64,000 bases of DNA from Parachlamydiales bacterium. Its GTDB lineage: Bacteria; Chlamydiota; Chlamydiia; Chlamydiales; JAJFMK01. The notes below the pieces were generated by a model. It saw only the letters and a list, made by a program, of their open reading frames with translations. It was not told the DNA's origin and did no database searches. Position numbers and translations under genes: made by a program. The DNA lies in contig CAVXVG010000029.1 of NCBI GenBank assembly GCA_963765145.1, positions 32,001-96,000 of the forward strand. Reading direction: 5' to 3'. This document shows, piece after piece, positions 3,890 to 63,181 of this stretch (position 1 is its first letter; each line of letters opens with the position of its first letter).

Positions 3890-4061
3890 AAAAAACCACT
3901 GAGGCACTGAGATCACTGAGGAAGTTGAGAACACTGAGAACCATTTTCTGGTAAATAAATGTGAATTCAATTTTCTATCAATTTATGAAAGTTGTTTTAC
4001 AAAAAACCAGCTCTCAGTGACCTCGACTTCCTCAGTGATCTCAGTGTCTCAGTGGTTTTTT
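3890..4061. repeat. Long inverted repeat with four CACTGAG units per arm, downstream of groEL
   Basis: AAAAAACCACTGAGGCACTGAGATCACTGAGGAAGTTGAGAACACTGAG ... CTCAGTGACCTCGACTTCCTCAGTGATCTCAGTGTCTCAGTGGTTTTTT. Confidence 0.9.
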
Positions 4062-8427: not shown

Positions 8428-8918
8428 CGCGAAGCGTTTGGAGTGCTAAACGGCCTTGTTGCATAATTCAATTTCTAATTAAAAAATGTAGCTTAGGCTT
8501 TAGAGGCACTTGCAAAAATCAGAATAAACTCTGATAAAGCCCTTAACATCTCTTAAGAGTTCTTGGTTACAAGATAAAAATAACAGGATGAACAGGGTGA
8601 ACAGGATAAGCTTCGCCAACAAAATGATTTCTATTTTCAAAATGATAAAGCTAGGCGGAGCTATCCTGTCGCTCGATGAGCGATCCTGTTCATCCTGTTT
8701 AATTTATAGGAAGCTTTTCCTTAGGTTAATGCAATACATAAGGGTCTATTGTGATCTGGAGTCCGATTTTTGCAAGTGTCTCTTTAGCCTGAGCTACAAT
8801 ATTTGTCCAAATTATGCTTAATTATGCAACAAGGCCGTGCTCCTGAGCCCGTTTAGCCTTTCACTTTCACAGATCAGTCAAAGCTAAACGGGCTCAGGAG
8901 CACTCCAAACGCTTCGCG
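8428..8918. repeat. Five-level nested composite: palindrome A > IS903-like MITE B (8452-8836) > GTAG-REP C (8487-8798) > MITE D (8503-8782) > hairpin E (8582-8699)
   Basis: A ends CGCGAAGCGTTTGGAG/CTCCAAACGCTTCGCG. B TIR GGCCTTGTTGCATAATT. C TGTAGCTTAGGC..GCCTGAGCTACA. D TIR GAGRCACTTGCAAAAATC with TTTA duplication. E AACAGGATGAACAGG..CCTGTTCATCCTGTT. Confidence 0.88.
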
Positions 8919-14739: not shown

Positions 14740-14979
14740 CGCGAAGCGTTTGGAGTGCTAAACGGCGTTGTTGCACAATCAAATAGAATTCGCATACACA
14801 TTGTAGCTTAGGCTTTAGCCTGAGCTCGTTTTGCAGGACTTTAGTCCTGCTAGAAGCTTGCGGGTTAAAACCCGCAAAAACGAACTCAGGCTAAAGCCTA
14901 AGCTACATTTCTCATGATGGCGATTAATTATGCAACAACGCCGTGCTAAACAGGAGTTTAGCACTCCAAACGCTTCGCG
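14740..14979. repeat. Composite: palindrome A > MITE B (14764-14942, 9-bp TSD GTGCTAAAC) > REP doublet C (14802-14907)
   Basis: GTGCTAAAC at 14755-14763 and 14943-14951 flanks TIRs GGCGTTGTTGCACAAT/ATTATGCAACAACGCC. Confidence 0.9.
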
Positions 14980-16770: not shown

Positions 16771-17020
16771 ATGATCAAATTGAAGTCACTACACTTTTAC
16801 AACGCGAAGCGTTTGGAGTGCTAAACTCCTGTTTAGCTTTGACTTATCAGTGAAAGTGAAAGCTAAACAGGAGTTTAGCACATACTGTAATTGCGCTTCA
16901 GAGCTTAGCCGGTAAGAAAATGGGCTGTTCTAGGAGGGTTTTAAAAACCCCACGGAGTAGTACTAGACTCTCCAGGCTTTGGCTTGGTAGCCTAAGCAAG
17001 CAATACAGGAGAACAGCCCA

Positions 17021-18122
17021 ATGAAACATTATATCGGTTTAGACGTATCTTTGAAAACTACTGCCATCTGCATCATGGCTCAAGATGGTAAGATCATCCG
17101 AGAGATGACAGCCGCTACTGACCCTTTAGCTATCGCAACTGCGATCAAGACGACCAAGCTCACTATTGAAGCTATAGCAATTGAAGCTGGTGGAACAAGC
17201 CGATGGCTTGTTCAAGAACTTCAAGAGCTTGACCTTCCAGCGATATGTATCGACTCTCGCAAAATGGCTGCCGCCATCGCAATCAAAGCCAATAAAACAG
17301 ACAAAAACGATGCGAGGGAAATCGCAAACGCCCTTCGGACTGGCTACTTTCAAGAGGTCTATCAAAAAAACGATACAAATATGAGCATCAAAAGTCTCTT
17401 AAACATCCGACGCAATCTGGTGATACAAAGAACCATGACGAGTAACTGTATCCGCGGTACTTTGAGATGTTGTGGAAAGCTTTTTTTAGGGTCTAGTAGT
17501 AGTCAAAAGAACTTCATAGAGAAGGTAACAGAGTCGATACAAGATCAACCTGAAGAGGTCGCAATGGGCATTCGTGCACTTTTAGTAACCTTTTCTCAAC
17601 TTCACAAACTAGTAGATGAAATAGACAAGAAGATCGAAGACATAGGAAAGAGATGACGAAGTCGTTCAGCTGCTAATGACAGTTCCTGGTGTAGGGATCG
17701 TAACTGCAGTGAGCTATAAGGTTGAAATTGGAGACCCAAAAAGATTCACACGATCGAGGTCAGTTGGAGCATATGTTGGGATGACTCCAAGGCAGTATAG
17801 TTCAGGTGAAACCGAGCATCAGGGGAAAATAACAAAGATTGGATCAAATGAACTCAGAGCGCTGCTATCTGATGCCGCCATGAGCATGATGTATCGATGC
17901 AAAACATGGAGTAGAGCCAAAGTTTTTGGGCTAAAGATCAATAAGAAGCATGGGCATAAAAAAGCTATAGTTGCCCTTGGTCGGAAGCTTGGTGTGATAA
18001 TGCATCGAATGTGGACAGAAGGTAAACCATTTGAAGCTGGTGAAGTCGAGAAAAAAGAAATTGATAAAGTAACCAAGCCAAGTCGGAAAGAGAAGAAAAA
18101 ATCAAAGCAGATGGCTGCTTAA
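17021..18122 (+). CDS. IS110-family recombinase (DEDD RuvC-like plus Tnp domain); frameshift near 17650
   Basis: YIGLDVS, IAIEA, KTDKNDA in ORF 17021-17656; TVPGVG, GMTPRQYSSG, AIVALGRKL in ORF 17676-18122. Confidence 0.93.
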
Positions 18123-18192
18123 GAAAAGTTAAAAAAGTTCTCAAAGAGCGAAAGAGCAGAGAGAGTAAGAAAAAAGATTCAAATACGAGTTC

Positions 18193-18348
18193 GAAATAAG
18201 GTTAAGACGCTTTGGAGTTGACGCTAATAAGACGTCGTGTAGCACATTGTCTTACCTTGTTTCTTTTGGAAAGTATGTTGGGGCTGAAGATCAGCTAATA
18301 AGGCCGAAATCTTCAATAAAAAGGACCCCGGAGAGAACTATGACCGAG
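18193..18348 (+). ncRNA. Putative bridge/seek RNA (target-binding loop plus donor-binding loop); ends approximate
   Basis: Target guides TTTGGAGT (18211-18218) and TAGCAC (18240-18245). Donor guides AGTATGT (18272-18278) and AGAGAAC (18332-18338). Each pair lies in an internal loop closed by stems. Confidence 0.85.
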
Positions 18349-18548
18349 TTAGAATTTTATTTTTTACGATCAAGCTTTGGAAGCCCATAGAGGAAGTTGT
18401 CAATTATCTTGGGGGAAGTATCCCCCAAACCCCCTCGGCTTAGGAAGGGGAAAGAGAAAAAATCATGCTTGCCTAGAAACGCAATTAGAGAACTCCAAAC
18501 GCTTCGCGAAGGCAGAATTCTCTGCACGCTGGTTAAATTATGTTTTAG

Positions 18549-22619: not shown

Positions 22620-22805
22620 AATCGCTATAGTATACCAAACGTAATAAATAACGTTACATTTGAGCGCGTGAAAGCGCCGCGATTCAAAGATCTCGATCGA
22701 GGTTGTATTTCTAATACTGTCTCGATCGAGATCTTTGAATCCCGGCAGCTTTGACGCGGCTCAAATGTACCGTTATTTGTTGCGTTTGGTATAATATGCT
22801 TAATT

Positions 22806-33920: not shown

Positions 33921-34130
33921 AATTCCTTGCCCTTGCCCTAAAAAATCTTTAATTCCATTTCTTCTTAAACAACAATGCAAAACCCTTTTTGAGCAAAGAG
34001 CTAACTCGATGGGATTTGCCTTTACTCCGCAACGCGTTTGGAAAAAATCTCTTCACATTGGTTAATTATGCAACAAGGGGGTCCAAAGGGTTTTTACCAA
34101 GAAGCTTTTCGGGCAGGGGCAAGGGAAATT
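33921..34130. repeat. Degenerate composite: terminal inverted repeats enclosing A and B end fragments
   Basis: AATTCCTTGCCCTTGCCC/GGGCAGGGGCAAGGGAAATT; CGCAACGCGTTTGGA at 34028; AATTATGCAACAAGG at 34064. Confidence 0.6.
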
Positions 34131-35852: not shown

Positions 35853-36647
35853 CTATCGATTTAGTAGGTCTTCTGTCAAGGCTGCTTCTTCAAAGAAGGC
35901 ATGGACCGAAGGCTCTTTGGAATTTATAAAGTTGTGTTTGTCTGCTACAAGTAAAATTTTGCCATCTTGATGAAATGCAAAACGGTCTCCAATCGAGAGG
36001 GCCGATTTGATATCATGCGTCACCACAATGCTTGTAGCTTTTAATTTTTCTTGGATCGTATTGATCAATTGATTGATTTGCGCTGCAGTCACCGGATCCA
36101 AACCTGTTGTAGGCTCATCATAAAGCAGGATCTGGGGCCTGTAAAGGATAAGCCTTGCAAGAGCTGCTCTTTTTCTCATTCCCCCGGAAAGTTCTGAAGG
36201 CATCTTATCCTCAGTCCCCTCAAGCCCCACTAAAGAAAGTGCCTCTTTTACCCGCTCTTCGTAGGCTTCACCTCTCACCCATTCTCCTGTTGCAGGGTCT
36301 GGATTTTCGGTGAGGTAAAACCCGGCATTTCTGCCTACATTCATCGAGTCAAAAAGGGCCGACCCTTGAAAAAGCATCCCCATGTTGCGGGTTAAACGTT
36401 CTCGGAGGGGCCCTTTAGAGTTGATAATGTCTTGTCCTTGAACGAGGATAGTCCCTTTTTCCGGCTTTTCAATACCCAAAATTTGCCGTAAAAGTACGCT
36501 TTTTCCAACGCCCGAGCGGCCTAAAATTACAAGGGTTTCGCCTTTATGTACCTGTAGCGTAAGCCCTTTTAATACTTGTAGGGAACCGTACGATTTCCAA
36601 AGGTCTTTGATGTCGATCAGAACATTGTCATCTTTAGAACCAGGCAT
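35853..36647 (-). CDS. mlaF: MlaF-type ABC ATPase
   Basis: GRSGVGKS, LSGGMRKR, YDEPTTGLDP. Confidence 0.9.
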   Translation of the reverse strand: MPGSKDDNVLIDIKDLWKSYGSLQVLKGLTLQVHKGETLVILGRSGVGKSVLLRQILGIEKPEKGTILVQGQDIINSKGPLRERLTRNMGMLFQGSALFDSMNVGRNAGFYLTENPDPATGEWVRGEAYEERVKEALSLVGLEGTEDKMPSELSGGMRKRAALARLILYRPQILLYDEPTTGLDPVTAAQINQLINTIQEKLKATSIVVTHDIKSALSIGDRFAFHQDGKILLVADKHNFINSKEPSVHAFFEEAALTEDLLNR

Positions 36648-37428
36648 TCCAAACCCTCTTTGATGTAGGTGTAGGATGAATTTAGACCGACCGTCAGGAC
36701 AAAATTTACGATTAAAATGATGCTGTAGCAAACGACTACACTATGGGTGGTTGACCGGCCAACCCCTGCGGCGCCCCCTTTTGTACGGAGACCTTGGAAG
36801 CACGAAACGGTCACAATGATAATACCAAAAACAAGCGCCTTTGTGGTCATCATGATGAAGTCGAAGGCGTGGATGTTGAGAGGAAGAGGATCTAAAAAGA
36901 CATTAGGGGCCATTCCATAGACATGAACTGCCACCATATAACCGCCGATCACACCCGTGAGAGCACTGAACACTGTCAGCAGTGGCAGCATCAATACGCC
37001 GGCTATCATCCGTGGCGCAAGCAAATACCGCATAGGATTGACAGCCATCGAGTTGAGGGCATCCACCTGCTCTGTCACTTTCATTGTGCCAATTTCTGCG
37101 CACATGGCAGAACCGACCCGCCCCGTCACCATGAAGGCAGTAAGGATGGGGCCTGAGTTCTACCATCATGGCTTTGGTCACCATCAAGCCGGTAACTGCC
37201 GCAAGCCCTTTATCGCTCAGCTGGAAAAAAGCTTGGGCTGCCAAAACCATTCCGGTTGAAAAACCGGTGATTGCCACGACAGGCAAAGAGGCCACACCAA
37301 CGATAAAAAGTTTGTCTCTTACAATTGGCCAATGGGGAAATTTTTGAACGGAGGCAACAATCGACACTGATGATGAGCAATACATACTCGCCAACGGCAG
37401 AGACCGTCCTAGAAACCTTATCGAACAT
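36617..37428 (-). CDS. mlaE: MlaE permease, frameshifted
   Basis: GVASLPVVAITG, GRVGSAMCAEIGTMKVTEQVDAL, GGAAGVGRSTT across ORF fragments. Confidence 0.87.
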
Positions 37429-37606
37429 AAAGCTGGATGATAGGGATTTACTCAACTACAAGTCAACCACGCGAATAAACGTGCCCGTGCCTTTGTCAGA
37501 TATTTTTACGAAAAAGCTTTTTTAGTTCGCAACGCGTTTGGAGTGCTAAACTCCTGTTTAGCTTTCACTTATTAGTGAGAGTGAAAGCTAAACAGGAGTT
37601 TAGCAC

Positions 37607-38720
37607 GGCCTTGTTGCACAATTAAGTAAAAAAATTTTAGACCCTCTTACAAGGTCTTTTTCTATCCTAATTTATCTTTTTACCCAAACGCCCTTCGGCA
37701 TTCCTAAACTATTCATTTTATTGATTACTAGGCACTTGCAAAACGCTTCAGTGCGTTGAGTCTCTAATGTGCGTGATTTTAGTTCATCACCCAACATCGT
37801 TTTTACTCGAAACATGGAAGTCTCTACTAATGACCTTTTGTAATACTCAACTTCCTCTTTCCAGGGTCGCCTACCAGTATCTCTATCCCCCAGAGCATGT
37901 ATTCTCGCTATGTCTGTATCTCGATCCTTTACCCATCCTTCTTTGGCTCCCTTAATCCTTGCGTGTCTTGGTGGAGGAATAATGGCTCTGGCCCCTTTTT
38001 GATGTATTTTCTCCCTCACTACATTTGGGTCATAAGCACCATCTCCACGCACGTATCTATTTTCCCTCGGATCTTGTCGAGCATCCTTACTGCTGGCTCT
38101 GCCTCTCCAGTACTATGATCTGTTAATTCGCAAACAACTATATCTTGTGTTTCAGCGTCAATCGCAATATGAAATTTTCTCCAAATACGTCGTTTACTTT
38201 TGCCGTGAGTCCTAACTTTCCATTCTCCCTCTCCATGCACCTTAAGGCCGGTAGAATCTAAAATAATGTGCCTGGCAGGCCCATTACTTAGGCGTTTAAT
38301 GCTCTTATGGAGAGTCTTTGCTCTTCGGCAGATTTGTGAATAACAAGGAATTGTTAGAAATAACCTCATTAGCAAGAATATGGATGCGGCAAAACCTTGC
38401 AGACTTCTCAATGTTAGGTTGAATCGCTCCCTTAAAACCAACAACATCAGGATGGCGTCATCTGAGTATGTCTCCGGTCTTCCAGCAGATTTTGTATGTT
38501 TATGAGACAGCCACTTTCCTAGAGCGTTTTCCTCGATCCAAATAGTTATGCTTCCCCTTTGGATCAGAGCTTTGTTATAATCGGCCCAGTTGCGAATTTG
38601 ATAGTTTGCGCTAGCTTGCATGAAGTAGTTTCCCTTTTTTTAGTCGAAAACAGATTACTTCATGCATTTTTTTTTGACATGCCTTTTAGCAGCGTGTCAG
38701 GGGTATTGTGCAACAACGCC
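37607..38720 (-). mobile_element. IS5 family, IS903-group insertion sequence with 9-bp TSD
   Basis: TIRs GGCCTTGTTGCACAAT/ATTGTGCAACAACGCC; TSD GTTTAGCAC at 37598-37606 and 38721-38729. Confidence 0.92.
37672..38621 (-). CDS. IS5/IS903-type DDE transposase; frameshift near 38050
   Basis: NWADYNKALIQRGSITIW, DSTGLKVHGEGEW, WRKFH, GDGAYD, RSLVETSMFRVK. Confidence 0.93.
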
Positions 38721-38748
38721 GTTTAGCACTCCAAACGCGTTGCGGGAA

Positions 38749-45048: not shown

Positions 45049-45144
45049 CGCGAAGCGTTTGGAGTGCTAAACTCCTGTTTAGCTTTCATTTTCACTGATA
45101 AGTCAAAAGCTAAACGGGCTCAGGAGCACTCCAAACGCTTCGTG
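45049..45144. repeat. Uninterrupted palindrome A with hybrid arms, between convergent genes
   Basis: Left arm GTGCTAAACTCCTG, right arm CGGGCTCAGGAGCAC. Confidence 0.9.
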
Positions 45145-48557: not shown

Positions 48558-48649
48558 CGCGAAGCGTTTGGAGTGTCTAAACTCCTGTTTAGCTTTGACT
48601 TTCAAAAAGTGAAAGCTAAACAGGAGTTTAGCACTCCAAACGCTTCGCG
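48558..48649. repeat. Uninterrupted palindrome A (92 bp), reference copy
   Basis: CGCGAAGCGTTTGGAGTG(T)CTAAACTCCTGTTTAGCTTT...AAAGCTAAACAGGAGTTTAGCACTCCAAACGCTTCGCG. Confidence 0.93.
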
Positions 48650-52615: not shown

Positions 52616-53067
52616 TTATGCAATAAGGCGGTGCAAAAAAGGCCTTGTTGCATAATTAGCCACTGAGATCTCGAAAGAAAATTTGAGGCAGTGAGAAACA
52701 AATAAACGCCCGAAGGACGTTTCGGATTGTAGCCCAGGGTAAGCGCGGAGCGCGCAACCCTGGGTAAGATGGTAATTAAAATAATGCACCCACGAATGTG
52801 GGTGCTGGATGATTCTTAGACTCGATAATTGCCTTTTGCCTGACCATATCCGGCACCCACGTTCGTGGGTGCATCGCTTTAATGTATCGTTTTACCCAGG
52901 GTTCGAGCTTCGCTTACCTTGGGCTACAATCCAAAACGCCCTTCGGGCGTTTATTTCTATTCAGCGAACAATTATGCAACAACGCCGTGCTCTACGTCCG
53001 TTTAGCCTTTCACTTTCACAGATAAGTGAAAGGCTAAACGGCCGTAGAGCACTCCAAACGCTTCGCG
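52616..53067. repeat. Composite: MITE B (52641-52986) carrying long REP hairpin F (52700-52956), followed by most of a palindrome A
   Basis: B TIRs GGCCTTGTTGCATAATT/AATTATGCAACAACGCC. F: AAATAAACGCCCGAAGG..GTAGCCCAGGGT..GGGCTAC..CCTTCGGGCGTTTATTT. A arms GTGCTCTAC/GTAGAGCAC. Confidence 0.87.
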
Positions 53068-61796: not shown

Positions 61797-62177
61797 ATGC
61801 ACTTAGCAAATAATGATACCGGTCAGACAAAATCTGACAAAAAAGGACTCTCTAGTCGTCAATTAAAGGCACTCCCCTACCTCATTGGAGCTGATTCCGA
61901 AGGGGAAGCTTGTGAACAAGCGAACATCGCTCGTCAAACCTACTACGAATGGCTCAAAGAGCCTGCTTTTAAGGCCGAATTAGGCCGTCTCCGAGATGCT
62001 GTTGTAGAAGATGCCGTTGAAACTTTAAAGGCCCATACAACAAAGGCTGTTGACACTCTCGTACAACTACTCGATGTACCCAATCCATCTATTCGACGAA
62101 ATGTAGCAAATGACATTTTGCAAAATGTTATCCGCTTAAAAGAGCTGCAAGAGATGAGAAGCGAATTGAGCTTCTAG
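61797..62177 (+). CDS. HTH protein resembling phage terminase small subunits
   Basis: LSSRQLKAL, EACEQANIARQTYYEWLKEPAFKAE, AVDTLVQLL. Confidence 0.6.
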   Translation: MHLANNDTGQTKSDKKGLSSRQLKALPYLIGADSEGEACEQANIARQTYYEWLKEPAFKAELGRLRDAVVEDAVETLKAHTTKAVDTLVQLLDVPNPSIRRNVANDILQNVIRLKELQEMRSELSF

Positions 62178-62214: not shown

Positions 62215-62466
62215 ATGCGATTTTTAACCAGATTAAAACGCATTGAGGAGAAATTGCTCGATGATGGAAAAACTTGGGCTCTTTTTTTAATCGGATGCTA
62301 CCTCAACCCTATCGAAGCAAACCAAAAACAACAAACTCTTATCACTGACTATATCCTGCAAGGAAACCAGGCACCAGATTACTGTATTTTCATTAATGAG
62401 GTGCCTTCTCCTGGAAGACCTTGCAGGGAAGGCTTCTTAAGCTTATTTCGAACCAATGATTCCTAG
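62215..62466 (+). CDS. Small hypothetical protein
   Basis: 83-aa ORF starting MRFLTRLKRIEEKL. Confidence 0.5.
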   Translation: MRFLTRLKRIEEKLLDDGKTWALFLIGCYLNPIEANQKQQTLITDYILQGNQAPDYCIFINEVPSPGRPCREGFLSLFRTNDS

Positions 62467-62801
62467 TCCTCAACCACCCAATCATGAGCCATGATATCCT
62501 CCATTTTTAAAGAGGGATTTTCTCGTAGACTGTTATTTCTTTGCAGGTCAAACTCGCAAAATTTTTCCTCTTCTTGGCCTCTTGCCGAAACGATCATCCT
62601 GGTAAAGCCATAGTTAGAGCGTTTGCGCCTGATGCTTTTACCTTCCTTCAATTCCTCTAAAGCCTTCTCAAAAGGCAAACCTTCTTTAAAAGTATCCATA
62701 ATCTTTTTCCAAATTTTTAGTTTCCACAACAGCAAGCCCCATACAATGACCGCTGGGGAAGCAGATACAATTATCATCGCAAAACTAGAGTCTATTTCCA
62801 T
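62463..62801 (-). CDS. Membrane-anchored DUF2829/Tad2-like protein, copy 2
   Basis: TM helix plus FEKALEELKEGKSIRRK...EDIMAHDWVV. Confidence 0.65.
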   Translation of the reverse strand: MEIDSSFAMIIVSASPAVIVWGLLLWKLKIWKKIMDTFKEGLPFEKALEELKEGKSIRRKRSNYGFTRMIVSARGQEEEKFCEFDLQRNNSLRENPSLKMEDIMAHDWVVED

Positions 62802-62830
62802 TATAGTGACCTCCTTTTCGTTCCCACTTC

Positions 62831-63181
62831 CTATTCCTCAATCAGCCAATCAGTTGCCAACACATCTTCCATCATCAATATTGGCCTTTCTACGACTCTG
62901 CTTCTGTCTTGTAGATAAAATTGGCAAAATTTTTCTTCTTCAATCCCTCTTATCGATACAACCATTCTGGTAAGGCCGTAATCAGACCTTTTACGTCGAA
63001 TGCTTTTACCCTGCTTCAGAGCCTCTAAGGCACTTTCGAAAGGCAGACCTTCCGTAAAAATATCCACCGTTTTCGTCCAAAATTCAGCCTTTACAGTGTC
63101 AAACCCTACAATGCTTGAAATAACAAAAAGCATCGCGATAGGCATCACGTAAGGCAATACATAGTCAGGTCTTATTTTCAT
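62831..63181 (-). CDS. Membrane-anchored DUF2829/Tad2-like protein, copy 1
   Basis: TM helix plus FESALEALKQGKSIRRK...EDVLATDWLI. Confidence 0.65.
   Translation of the reverse strand: MKIRPDYVLPYVMPIAMLFVISSIVGFDTVKAEFWTKTVDIFTEGLPFESALEALKQGKSIRRKRSDYGLTRMVVSIRGIEEEKFCQFYLQDRSRVVERPILMMEDVLATDWLIEE

What the first reader, a model, noticed from the sequence alone, without database searches (positions are those of the whole stretch)
37598..38729. IS903-group element and its MITEs insert at the same 9-mer of palindrome A that the IS110 targets
Seen: the transposase-carrying IS duplicates GTTTAGCAC in A's arm. MITE B at 14764 duplicates its reverse complement GTGCTAAAC, and B copies at 8452 and 52641 occupy the equivalent position. 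The IS110 core AC is the last two bases of this 9-mer. Known: IS903 makes 9-bp TSDs but is not strictly site-specific. Inference: a DDE transposase and an RNA-guided recombinase have converged on one landing pad. The duplication leaves the IS110 target TAGCACTCCAAA intact at 38724.
Basis: partly seen in the sequence, partly recalled or inferred. Interest (0 to 1): 0.75.

Follow-up and report, generated by a model that had tools for sequence, protein, structure and literature searches.

The report
Transposons sharing one palindromic landing pad
In this chlamydial genome a group of IS903-like jumping genes, normally unfussy about where they land, inserts almost only at one exact spot in a short hairpin repeat that two RNA-guided elements also aim at, giving a natural example of a transposase gaining target specificity.

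Summary
Largely confirmed and extended. The IS (37607-38720; IS5 family, 41% identical to IS903B) has the 9-bp duplication described. Genome-wide, 77 of 94 scorable exact ends abut palindrome A in base-exact register (random positions 0.05%). Identical 279-bp MITEs duplicate whichever 9-mer variant the local A carries, so these are separate insertions. A is a RAYT-flanked REP/REPIN. The two closest transposases (72%, other chlamydial genomes) use the same register in other A variants and form a 100/99 clade; sister clades with near-identical ends have 12 unrelated targets. The IS110 is IS1111-type, and its right end encodes guides for TAGC-AC-TCCAAA. A second IS1111 uses the same core, in an arm that also holds a MITE. 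Two further families hit the loop and the GGAG. Corrections: 8452 has an imperfect duplication, and 52641 abuts A at one end only. DDE-plus-IS110 sharing of a REP family is known (Tobes & Pareja 2006). I found no report of strict IS903-group targeting. The scan earlier called A a REPIN and saw REP-seeking IS4 and IS481 elements on other DNA.

The parts
37528..37606 (+). Palindrome A (REPIN), left part: outer arm, inner hairpins, and the first copy of the 9-mer GTTTAGCAC (37598-37606)
37607..38720 (-). IS903-group IS5-family element, 1114 bp, 16-bp terminal inverted repeats
   Evidence: two further copies on G000:C2 and C25
37672..38621 (-). DDE transposase gene, split by a frameshift in this copy; the intact copy on G000:C2:100-1047 encodes 316 aa
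   Evidence: NF033579 296 bits against cut-off 140
38721..38744 (+). Second 9-mer copy and outer end of A; IS110 target TAGCACTCCAAA at 38724-38735
14764..14942 (.). MITE B (179 bp, carrying another hairpin repeat), duplication GTGCTAAAC, in a short A
8452..8836 (.). MITE B (385 bp, nested cargo including family E); in register at both ends, but the two 9-mers differ at 4 positions
52641..52986 (.). MITE B (346 bp); only the right end abuts an A arm (variant GTGCTCTAC)
16802..16881 (+). Palindrome A copy interrupted by the IS110
16882..18491 (+). IS1111-type IS110 element; core AC at 16880-16881 and 18492-18493; ORF split here, one open frame of 376 codons in the 4 other copies
18206..18253 (+). 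[quoted passage not shown]
   Evidence: RNA itself not observed
18272..18338 (+). Predicted donor-binding part: AGTATGT (18272) and AGAGAAC (18332), matching the joined element ends
45049..45144 (.). Empty A with two different arm variants
48558..48649 (.). Empty A

Best explanation
Palindrome A is a REP doublet (REPIN) of a RAYT system. One clade of IS903-group DDE transposases has acquired a strong preference for one register in the A arm. It makes its 9-bp staggered cut around G(T/C)GCKRAAS, directly 3' of GCGTTTGGA, in either orientation, and moves both the full IS and some 50 or more non-coding MITEs there. Recognition is most likely by the protein reading DNA sequence (the flank plus part of the 9-mer), possibly helped by the hairpin shape. 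Two unrelated IS1111 recombinases reach the first two bases of the same 9-mer through RNA guides. The abundant intergenic REP is a safe landing site, and the duplication regenerates the IS1111 target, so insertions can stack. SHOWN: the positions, the duplications, clade restriction, the guide matches and co-occupation. INFERRED: protein readout, the residues involved, the order of events and any benefit.
For: 77 of 94 scorable exact ends in register against about 0.05% at random. 24 of 55 paired elements have a perfect 9-bp duplication at an A-type 9-mer. MITEs 100% identical inside carry duplications GTTTCGCAC, GTTTAGCAC and GTTGCACAC, in both orientations. Three IS copies 99% or more alike sit in three different A copies. 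Other genomes: G159 7 of 7 ends, G373 3 of 3 (two may be one end across an assembly gap), G001 5 of 6, with 9-mers GTGCGAAAG, GTGCGGAAG and GCGCTAAAG. The three full transposases form a 100/99 clade; the wider clade has 29 proteins at FastTree 0.999, with diagnostic residues mostly between the inferred catalytic D194 and E267. Sister elements (54-65% identical, near-identical ends): 12 of 12 targets differ and none is A. Arms with A at 9-mer position 6 are occupied 49 of 215 times, arms with C 2 of 60 (Fisher p 2.5e-4). No target-matching sequence in the IS's non-coding ends.
Against: No transposition was observed; everything is genomic footprint. Only 24 of 55 pairs have a perfect duplication. 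The rest: 8 with two outer half-arms, 9 with imperfect duplication, 9 with one flank not scored as A, 2 with neither, 1 with two inner halves, 2 at contig edges. Seven inner-side ends abut the variant 9-mers that look avoided on the outer side. For perfect-hairpin arms with C at position 6 the deficit is weak (1 of 23, p 0.055). One exact end in G393, and the MITE ends in G058, are not at A; these may belong to sister elements. Flanks are known for only 3 of the 29 clade proteins. Most sister elements come from genomes with little or no A (G332 has 1 exact arm), so their scatter does not by itself show that they would ignore A. Copies within a genome are not independent, so the p values overstate.
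Confidence: 0.72

Rival explanations
1. Targeting is real but indirect: the transposase is drawn to the extruded REP hairpin or to a protein bound at REPs (RAYT or a host nucleoid protein), not to the base sequence.
For: One of the two staggered cuts falls at the stem-loop junction of the arm hairpin. The 9-mer covaries between genomes and is still used. Family E inserts in 4-nt loops of two unrelated hairpins (40 and 8 of 59 ends). H-NS steers IS903 in E. coli (bioRxiv 2024.02.16.580519, passages).
Against: Perfect-hairpin arms with C at position 6 are under-used (1 of 23). Other abundant hairpin repeats in this genome were not seen at these ends. A's cognate RAYT was not found in the G000 assembly (best tblastn 24-30%; 84.8% complete).
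Confidence: 0.2
2. One or a few chance insertions into A were later multiplied as A::B composites, by the RAYT or by duplication and gene conversion.
For: Some loci look duplicated (C25:32627 and C28:18; C19:6883 and C25:6006). A itself is a mobile repeat.
Against: Identical MITEs carry different, locally matching duplications in both orientations. Many unrelated MITE interiors and three full IS copies share the register. The register recurs in three other genomes with other A variants.
Confidence: 0.06
3. Insertion is random and selection leaves only intergenic copies.
For: A copies in the window lie between genes.
Against: Selection cannot give base-exact register. Sister elements survive at unrelated sites.
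Confidence: 0.02

Closest known systems
IS903 / IS903B (IS5 family, IS903 group)
   Same: [quoted passage not shown]
   Different: IS903's target motif is degenerate, WTTYA-N9-TRAAW (PMC2577343, Table 1 passage). This clade uses one fixed register in a REP, with flanks TTGGA-N9-TCC; only the innermost A and T and part of the left flank agree.
REP-targeting DDE elements ISRm22 (IS4), ISPsy8, IS1397 and ISKpn1 (IS3)
   Same: All copies at one position of a REP, with a duplication. Imperfect duplications there were explained by recombination or adjacent deletion. In S. meliloti ISRm22 (IS4) and ISRm19 (IS110) both use REPs (PMC1525189; parts 1-3 of 6 read plus passages).
   Different: That survey lists the IS5 family only with a loose 'type 2' association (IS1106), not a fixed position. 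In what I read it gives no overlap of a DDE duplication with an IS110 core, no MITE fleet and no sister-clade comparison.
IS621 and IS1111-group bridge/seek-RNA recombinases
   Same: REP target, 2-bp core, long right end with sub-terminal repeats, guides in an internal loop (PMC11208160, passages); reversed guide order in IS1111 versus IS110 (PMC11187229, abstract).
   Different: New sequences only. Two unrelated IS1111 elements use the same core in opposite orientation.
REPINs with RAYT (TnpA-REP)
   Same: Two hairpin units in inverted orientation, over 100 copies, flanking a REP-associated tyrosine transposase gene in four relatives.
   Different: The foot motif is GGAG with an outer mini-hairpin, not GT[AG]G. 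The word GGAG does not occur in the main text of PMC3733652 or PMC6006769 (figures and supplements not seen).

Membership tests
IS5 family, IS903 group | Single-ORF DDE transposase matching the family model | tested here: met
   PF13737 and PF01609; NF033579 296 against 140; D122, D194 and E267 invariant in 36 sequences (catalytic role inferred)
IS5 family, IS903 group | Full-length relatedness to IS903 | tested here: met
   41.2% over 98% of the query to IS903B-annotated genes
IS5 family, IS903 group | Short terminal inverted repeats and 9-bp duplication | tested here: met
IS5 family, IS903 group | Degenerate target preference WTTYA-N9-TRAAW (described for IS903 itself; not used to define the group) | tested here: not met
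   Fixed register in A; motif. This is the departure reported.
IS5 family, IS903 group | Transposition activity | not testable with these tools
   Identical MITE copies suggest recent activity
IS110 family, IS1111 group | DEDD recombinase with PF01548 and the family model | tested here: met
   PF01548; the two halves of the window copy score 104 and 116 on NF033542, each under 140; the second element scores 214; open frame of 376 codons in 4 of 5 copies
IS110 family, IS1111 group | Short left end, long right end, sub-terminal inverted repeats, 2-bp core | tested here: met
   About 140-bp left and 370-bp right end; TAATTGCG/CGCAATTA; AC on both sides
IS110 family, IS1111 group | Guides for both target strands in the right end | tested here: met
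   TTTGGAGT and TAGCAC in one loop; both together in 0.05% of 200,000 base shuffles
IS110 family, IS1111 group | RNA expressed and required | not testable with these tools
   No RNA run was searched (asked for DNA)
REP/REPIN with RAYT | High-copy intergenic hairpin doublet with covarying stem | tested here: met
   96 empty doublets from 336 arm matches; stem variants GCTAAAC/GTTTAGC, GCGAAAC/GTTTCGC, GCGCAGC/GCTGCGC; fold z -9 to -16
REP/REPIN with RAYT | Flanks a RAYT gene | tested here: met
   Arms beside Y1 genes in 4 of 5 genomes searched (both sides in G159, G251, G373; one side visible in G393), all four over the NF047646 cut-off; not found in G000 itself
REP/REPIN with RAYT | GT[AG]G tetranucleotide at the hairpin foot | tested here: not met
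   The foot reads GGAG-T; a variant REP
REP/REPIN with RAYT | Cleavage by the RAYT | not testable with these tools
   Needs an in vitro assay

The most novel reading that the evidence does not exclude
The IS903-group clade is a REP specialist that reads the hairpin or a RAYT-bound REP, an ability gained through about a dozen changes in the catalytic-domain insertion and gained a second time in Allostella. Its MITEs then ferry other REPs, A itself and even Y1 transposase genes into A. This builds a nested community in which at least five recombinase families partition about 17 bp of one arm without destroying each other's targets.
Probability: 0.25. Interest if true: 0.78.

Novelty: new variant of a known kind. 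Interest (0 to 1): 0.6.

Why it matters
How a DDE transposase becomes site-specific for a REP has been open since IS1397 and ISRm22 were described. Here a targeting clade and its scattered sisters differ by about 35-40% of residues, share almost the same ends, and are separated by a short list of diagnostic residues. That makes the question testable by swaps. The same arm is reached by protein-based and RNA-guided routes at overlapping bases, so the two modes can be compared on one substrate. A compact site-specific DDE enzyme would also be of interest as an integration tool. The general idea of REPs as shared landing sites is not new.

Tried and rejected
RNA guide for the DDE element: the non-coding ends of the three clade members hold no match to eight target words. 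The only hits (TTTGGAG) lie inside the coding region and are taken as chance. Cognate RAYT of A in G000: none of 6 Y1 genes has an A arm within 1.5 kb; tblastn with four A-flanked RAYTs gave only 24-30% hits. More clade members with flanks: the metagenome scan gave 80 loci, none over 65% identity, and no A-like flank was seen by eye among the rows printed (38% identity or more). Structure: no model was obtained, and a profile search of solved structures gave nothing under E 0.35, so the position of the diagnostic residues rests on sequence alone. Sequencing runs: 11 runs, all with small shares; four were laid as contigs and gave no joint across the IS and no test of the frameshift; not used as evidence. 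Family E relatives (50-59% identical, 7 of 300 genomes besides G000) show unrelated flanks by eye. Sister-clade target logo from 12 sites: only a weak A/T bias next to the duplication. Literature: searches listed no paper on fixed-position REP insertion by an IS903-group element. The library lacks most subscription papers, ISfinder was not available, and supplements were not read.

Full report
OBSERVATION. The element spans 37607-38720, with 16-bp inverted ends and GTTTAGCAC on both sides. Its transposase is on the minus strand and split by a frameshift. The copy on G000:C2 is one base longer and encodes 316 aa; a third copy on C25 is split at another position. The protein passes the NCBIfam IS5 model and is 41% identical to IS903B. 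The MITE at 14764 has the stated duplication. The MITE at 8452 is in register but its two 9-mers differ at four positions, and the one at 52641 touches A only at its right end. The genome is a 2.68-Mb assembly, 84.8% complete. I place it in Chlamydiota because the closest transposase relatives carry chlamydial record titles and the same DNA turns up in genomes of its own order.

GENOME-WIDE TEST. There are 155 end matches: 96 exact, 34 with one mismatch and 25 with two. Of the 96 exact ends, 2 are at contig edges, 77 abut A in exact register, 4 abut the bare 9-mer, 4 are off register and 9 lie elsewhere. For one-mismatch ends the figures are 12 in register, 8 at the bare 9-mer, 13 elsewhere and 1 at an edge, so older ends are less often at A. 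Random positions score about 0.05%. Of 55 paired elements, 24 have a perfect duplication, 9 an imperfect one, 8 lie between two outer half-arms with the A core gone, 9 have one flank not scored as A, 2 have neither, 1 lies between two inner halves and 2 are at edges. I infer that the irregular cases come from adjacent deletion, recombination between copies, or later conversion of one arm to match the other. Adjacent deletions are common for IS903 (PMC11708052, passages), but I did not test this here.

INDEPENDENT INSERTIONS. Five 279-bp MITEs are 100% identical over the aligned interior. Four of them have perfect duplications, of three different 9-mers (GTTTCGCAC, GTTTAGCAC, GTTGCACAC), and both orientations occur. 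Copying of a composite cannot easily give this.

WHAT A IS. From 336 arm matches, 96 empty doublets were paired. Each arm reads mini-hairpin, TTTGGAGT, then a 7-bp stem with a 4-nt loop whose two sides change together. The exact arm word occurs in 28 of 401 phylum genomes, at high copy in four (270, 235, 122 and 63). In G159, G251, G373 and G393 the arms lie beside related Y1 transposase genes (48-69% identical) that pass the RAYT model. A is therefore a REP doublet with a non-canonical GGAG foot. Its RAYT was not found in G000.

CLADE RESTRICTION. The closest full transposases (72%) are in G159 and G373. In G159, 7 of 7 ends starting GGC[ACG]TTGTTGCATAA abut A at GTGCGAAAG; two one-mismatch look-alikes do not, and one was not examined. 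In G373, 3 of 3 exact ends do, though two may be one end across a gap. In the same-genus genome G001, which has only 18 exact arm matches, 5 of 6 exact ends do; three one-mismatch matches do not, and three were not fetched. One exact end in G393 and the MITE ends in G058 are not at A. The three proteins form a clade at 100/99 among 39 sequences. Twelve sister insertions with clean duplications have twelve different 9-mers; most come from genomes poor in A, which limits this control. A protein search adds 26 more members (29 in all, FastTree 0.999). Residues such as E173, P199, H220, I223, D237 and P253 are present in 26-29 of 29 and rare in 90 sisters. Their flanks are unknown.

THE IS110. It is IS1111-type: short left end, long right end, sub-terminal repeats, AC core. 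All 5 full copies and one lone end sit at TAGC-AC-TCCAAA. The right end carries TTTGGAGT and TAGCAC on opposite sides of one predicted internal loop, and two donor-matching words further on. A reversed guide order in IS1111 versus IS110 is described (PMC11187229, abstract); that this element's order is the IS1111 one is my inference from the IS621 layout. A second, unrelated IS110 (362 aa, 214 bits) on C25 sits at the same core in the opposite orientation. Its loop holds TTTTGGAGT and TGCGCAC, the latter fitting the GTGCGCA arm variant better than the arm it occupies. That arm also holds a MITE with a perfect duplication, and the opposite arm holds the IS903-group IS. None of the five copies of the first IS110 shares an arm with a MITE; one shares the doublet.

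FURTHER USERS OF THE ARM. Family E (ends GAGRCACTTGCAAAA, 4-bp duplication) has 40 of 59 end matches after TTTA/TAAA, mostly the loop of another hairpin repeat, and 8 after the TCCT/AGGA loop of A. Its autonomous copy on C27 encodes a 381-aa transposase below all NCBIfam cut-offs, best IS1182, nested as A > B > hairpin D > E. Family F has no inverted ends and is flanked by GGAG on both sides in 12 of 22 matches; its enzyme is unknown. Within about 17 bp the arm is thus used at GGAG, at GT twice, at the 9-mer and at the loop.

MECHANISM. The best reading is direct DNA readout by the transposase. The flank GCGTTTGGA and G(T/C)GC are near constant over four genomes; arms with A at position 6 are occupied 49 of 215 times against 2 of 60 with C; and no guide is present in the ends. 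Shape or protein tethering remains a live rival, because one cut falls at the stem-loop junction, the deficit for perfect-hairpin C arms is weak (p 0.055), and seven inner-side ends abut supposedly avoided variants. The safe-landing benefit is inference.

COMPARISON. REP targeting by IS3, IS4 and IS110 elements, including a DDE and an IS110 element in one genome, was described by Tobes and Pareja (PMC1525189). There IS5 shows only a loose association. IS903's own motif is degenerate. Seven searches listed no report of fixed-position REP insertion by the IS903 group, within the library's limits. A separate IS903-group branch in Allostella vacuolata has all 3 copies at one position in a different repeat doublet of about 185 arms, which suggests a second origin.

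VERDICT. Real and well supported as targeting; a new variant of a known kind. Interest 0.6.

Noticed in passing
L041, L042, L043 (Allostella vacuolata): [quoted passage not shown]
   Followed up: partly
L204 (G000:C27:207199-208842): Four-level nest A > MITE B > hairpin D > autonomous element E with a 381-aa IS1182-like transposase; E ends favour 4-nt hairpin loops.
   Followed up: partly
L207 (G000:C25:31091-34028): One A doublet carries a second IS1111, a MITE and the IS903-group IS at once.
   Followed up: yes
L239:1501-2571 (G001): A MITE inserted in A carries a whole 150-aa Y1 transposase gene (IS200/IS605 model over cut-off) between inverted repeats, so these MITEs may move Y1 cassettes.
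   Followed up: partly
G000:C2:80636, C5:56047, C29:283707 and others: Family F: mostly 160-220-bp inserts without inverted ends, flanked by GGAG on both sides inside the A arm; mobilising enzyme unknown.
   Followed up: partly
G000:C21:240417 and C29:265509: MITE B copies that carry a complete A inside them, so the nesting runs both ways.
   Followed up: no
L002, L005, L006 (G000): Y1 transposase genes flanked by the same hairpin repeats that fill the MITE interiors.
   Followed up: partly
window 34021-34087: A outer arm joined to a lone, degenerate MITE end with its spacer; looks like a deletion product.
   Followed up: no
window 36617-37394, 17021-18122, 37672-38621: Three split genes (MlaE, the IS110 and the IS5 transposase); the two IS genes differ from intact sister copies by one base, so some may be assembly errors rather than pseudogenes.
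   Followed up: partly
window 62463-63181: Two tandem genes with weak Tad2-like (Thoeris anti-defence) matches next to a transposase HTH fragment at 61797-62177.
   Followed up: no
window 3890-4061 and 22676-22746: Other long inverted repeats unrelated to A; the first overlaps a methyltransferase ORF start.
   Followed up: no
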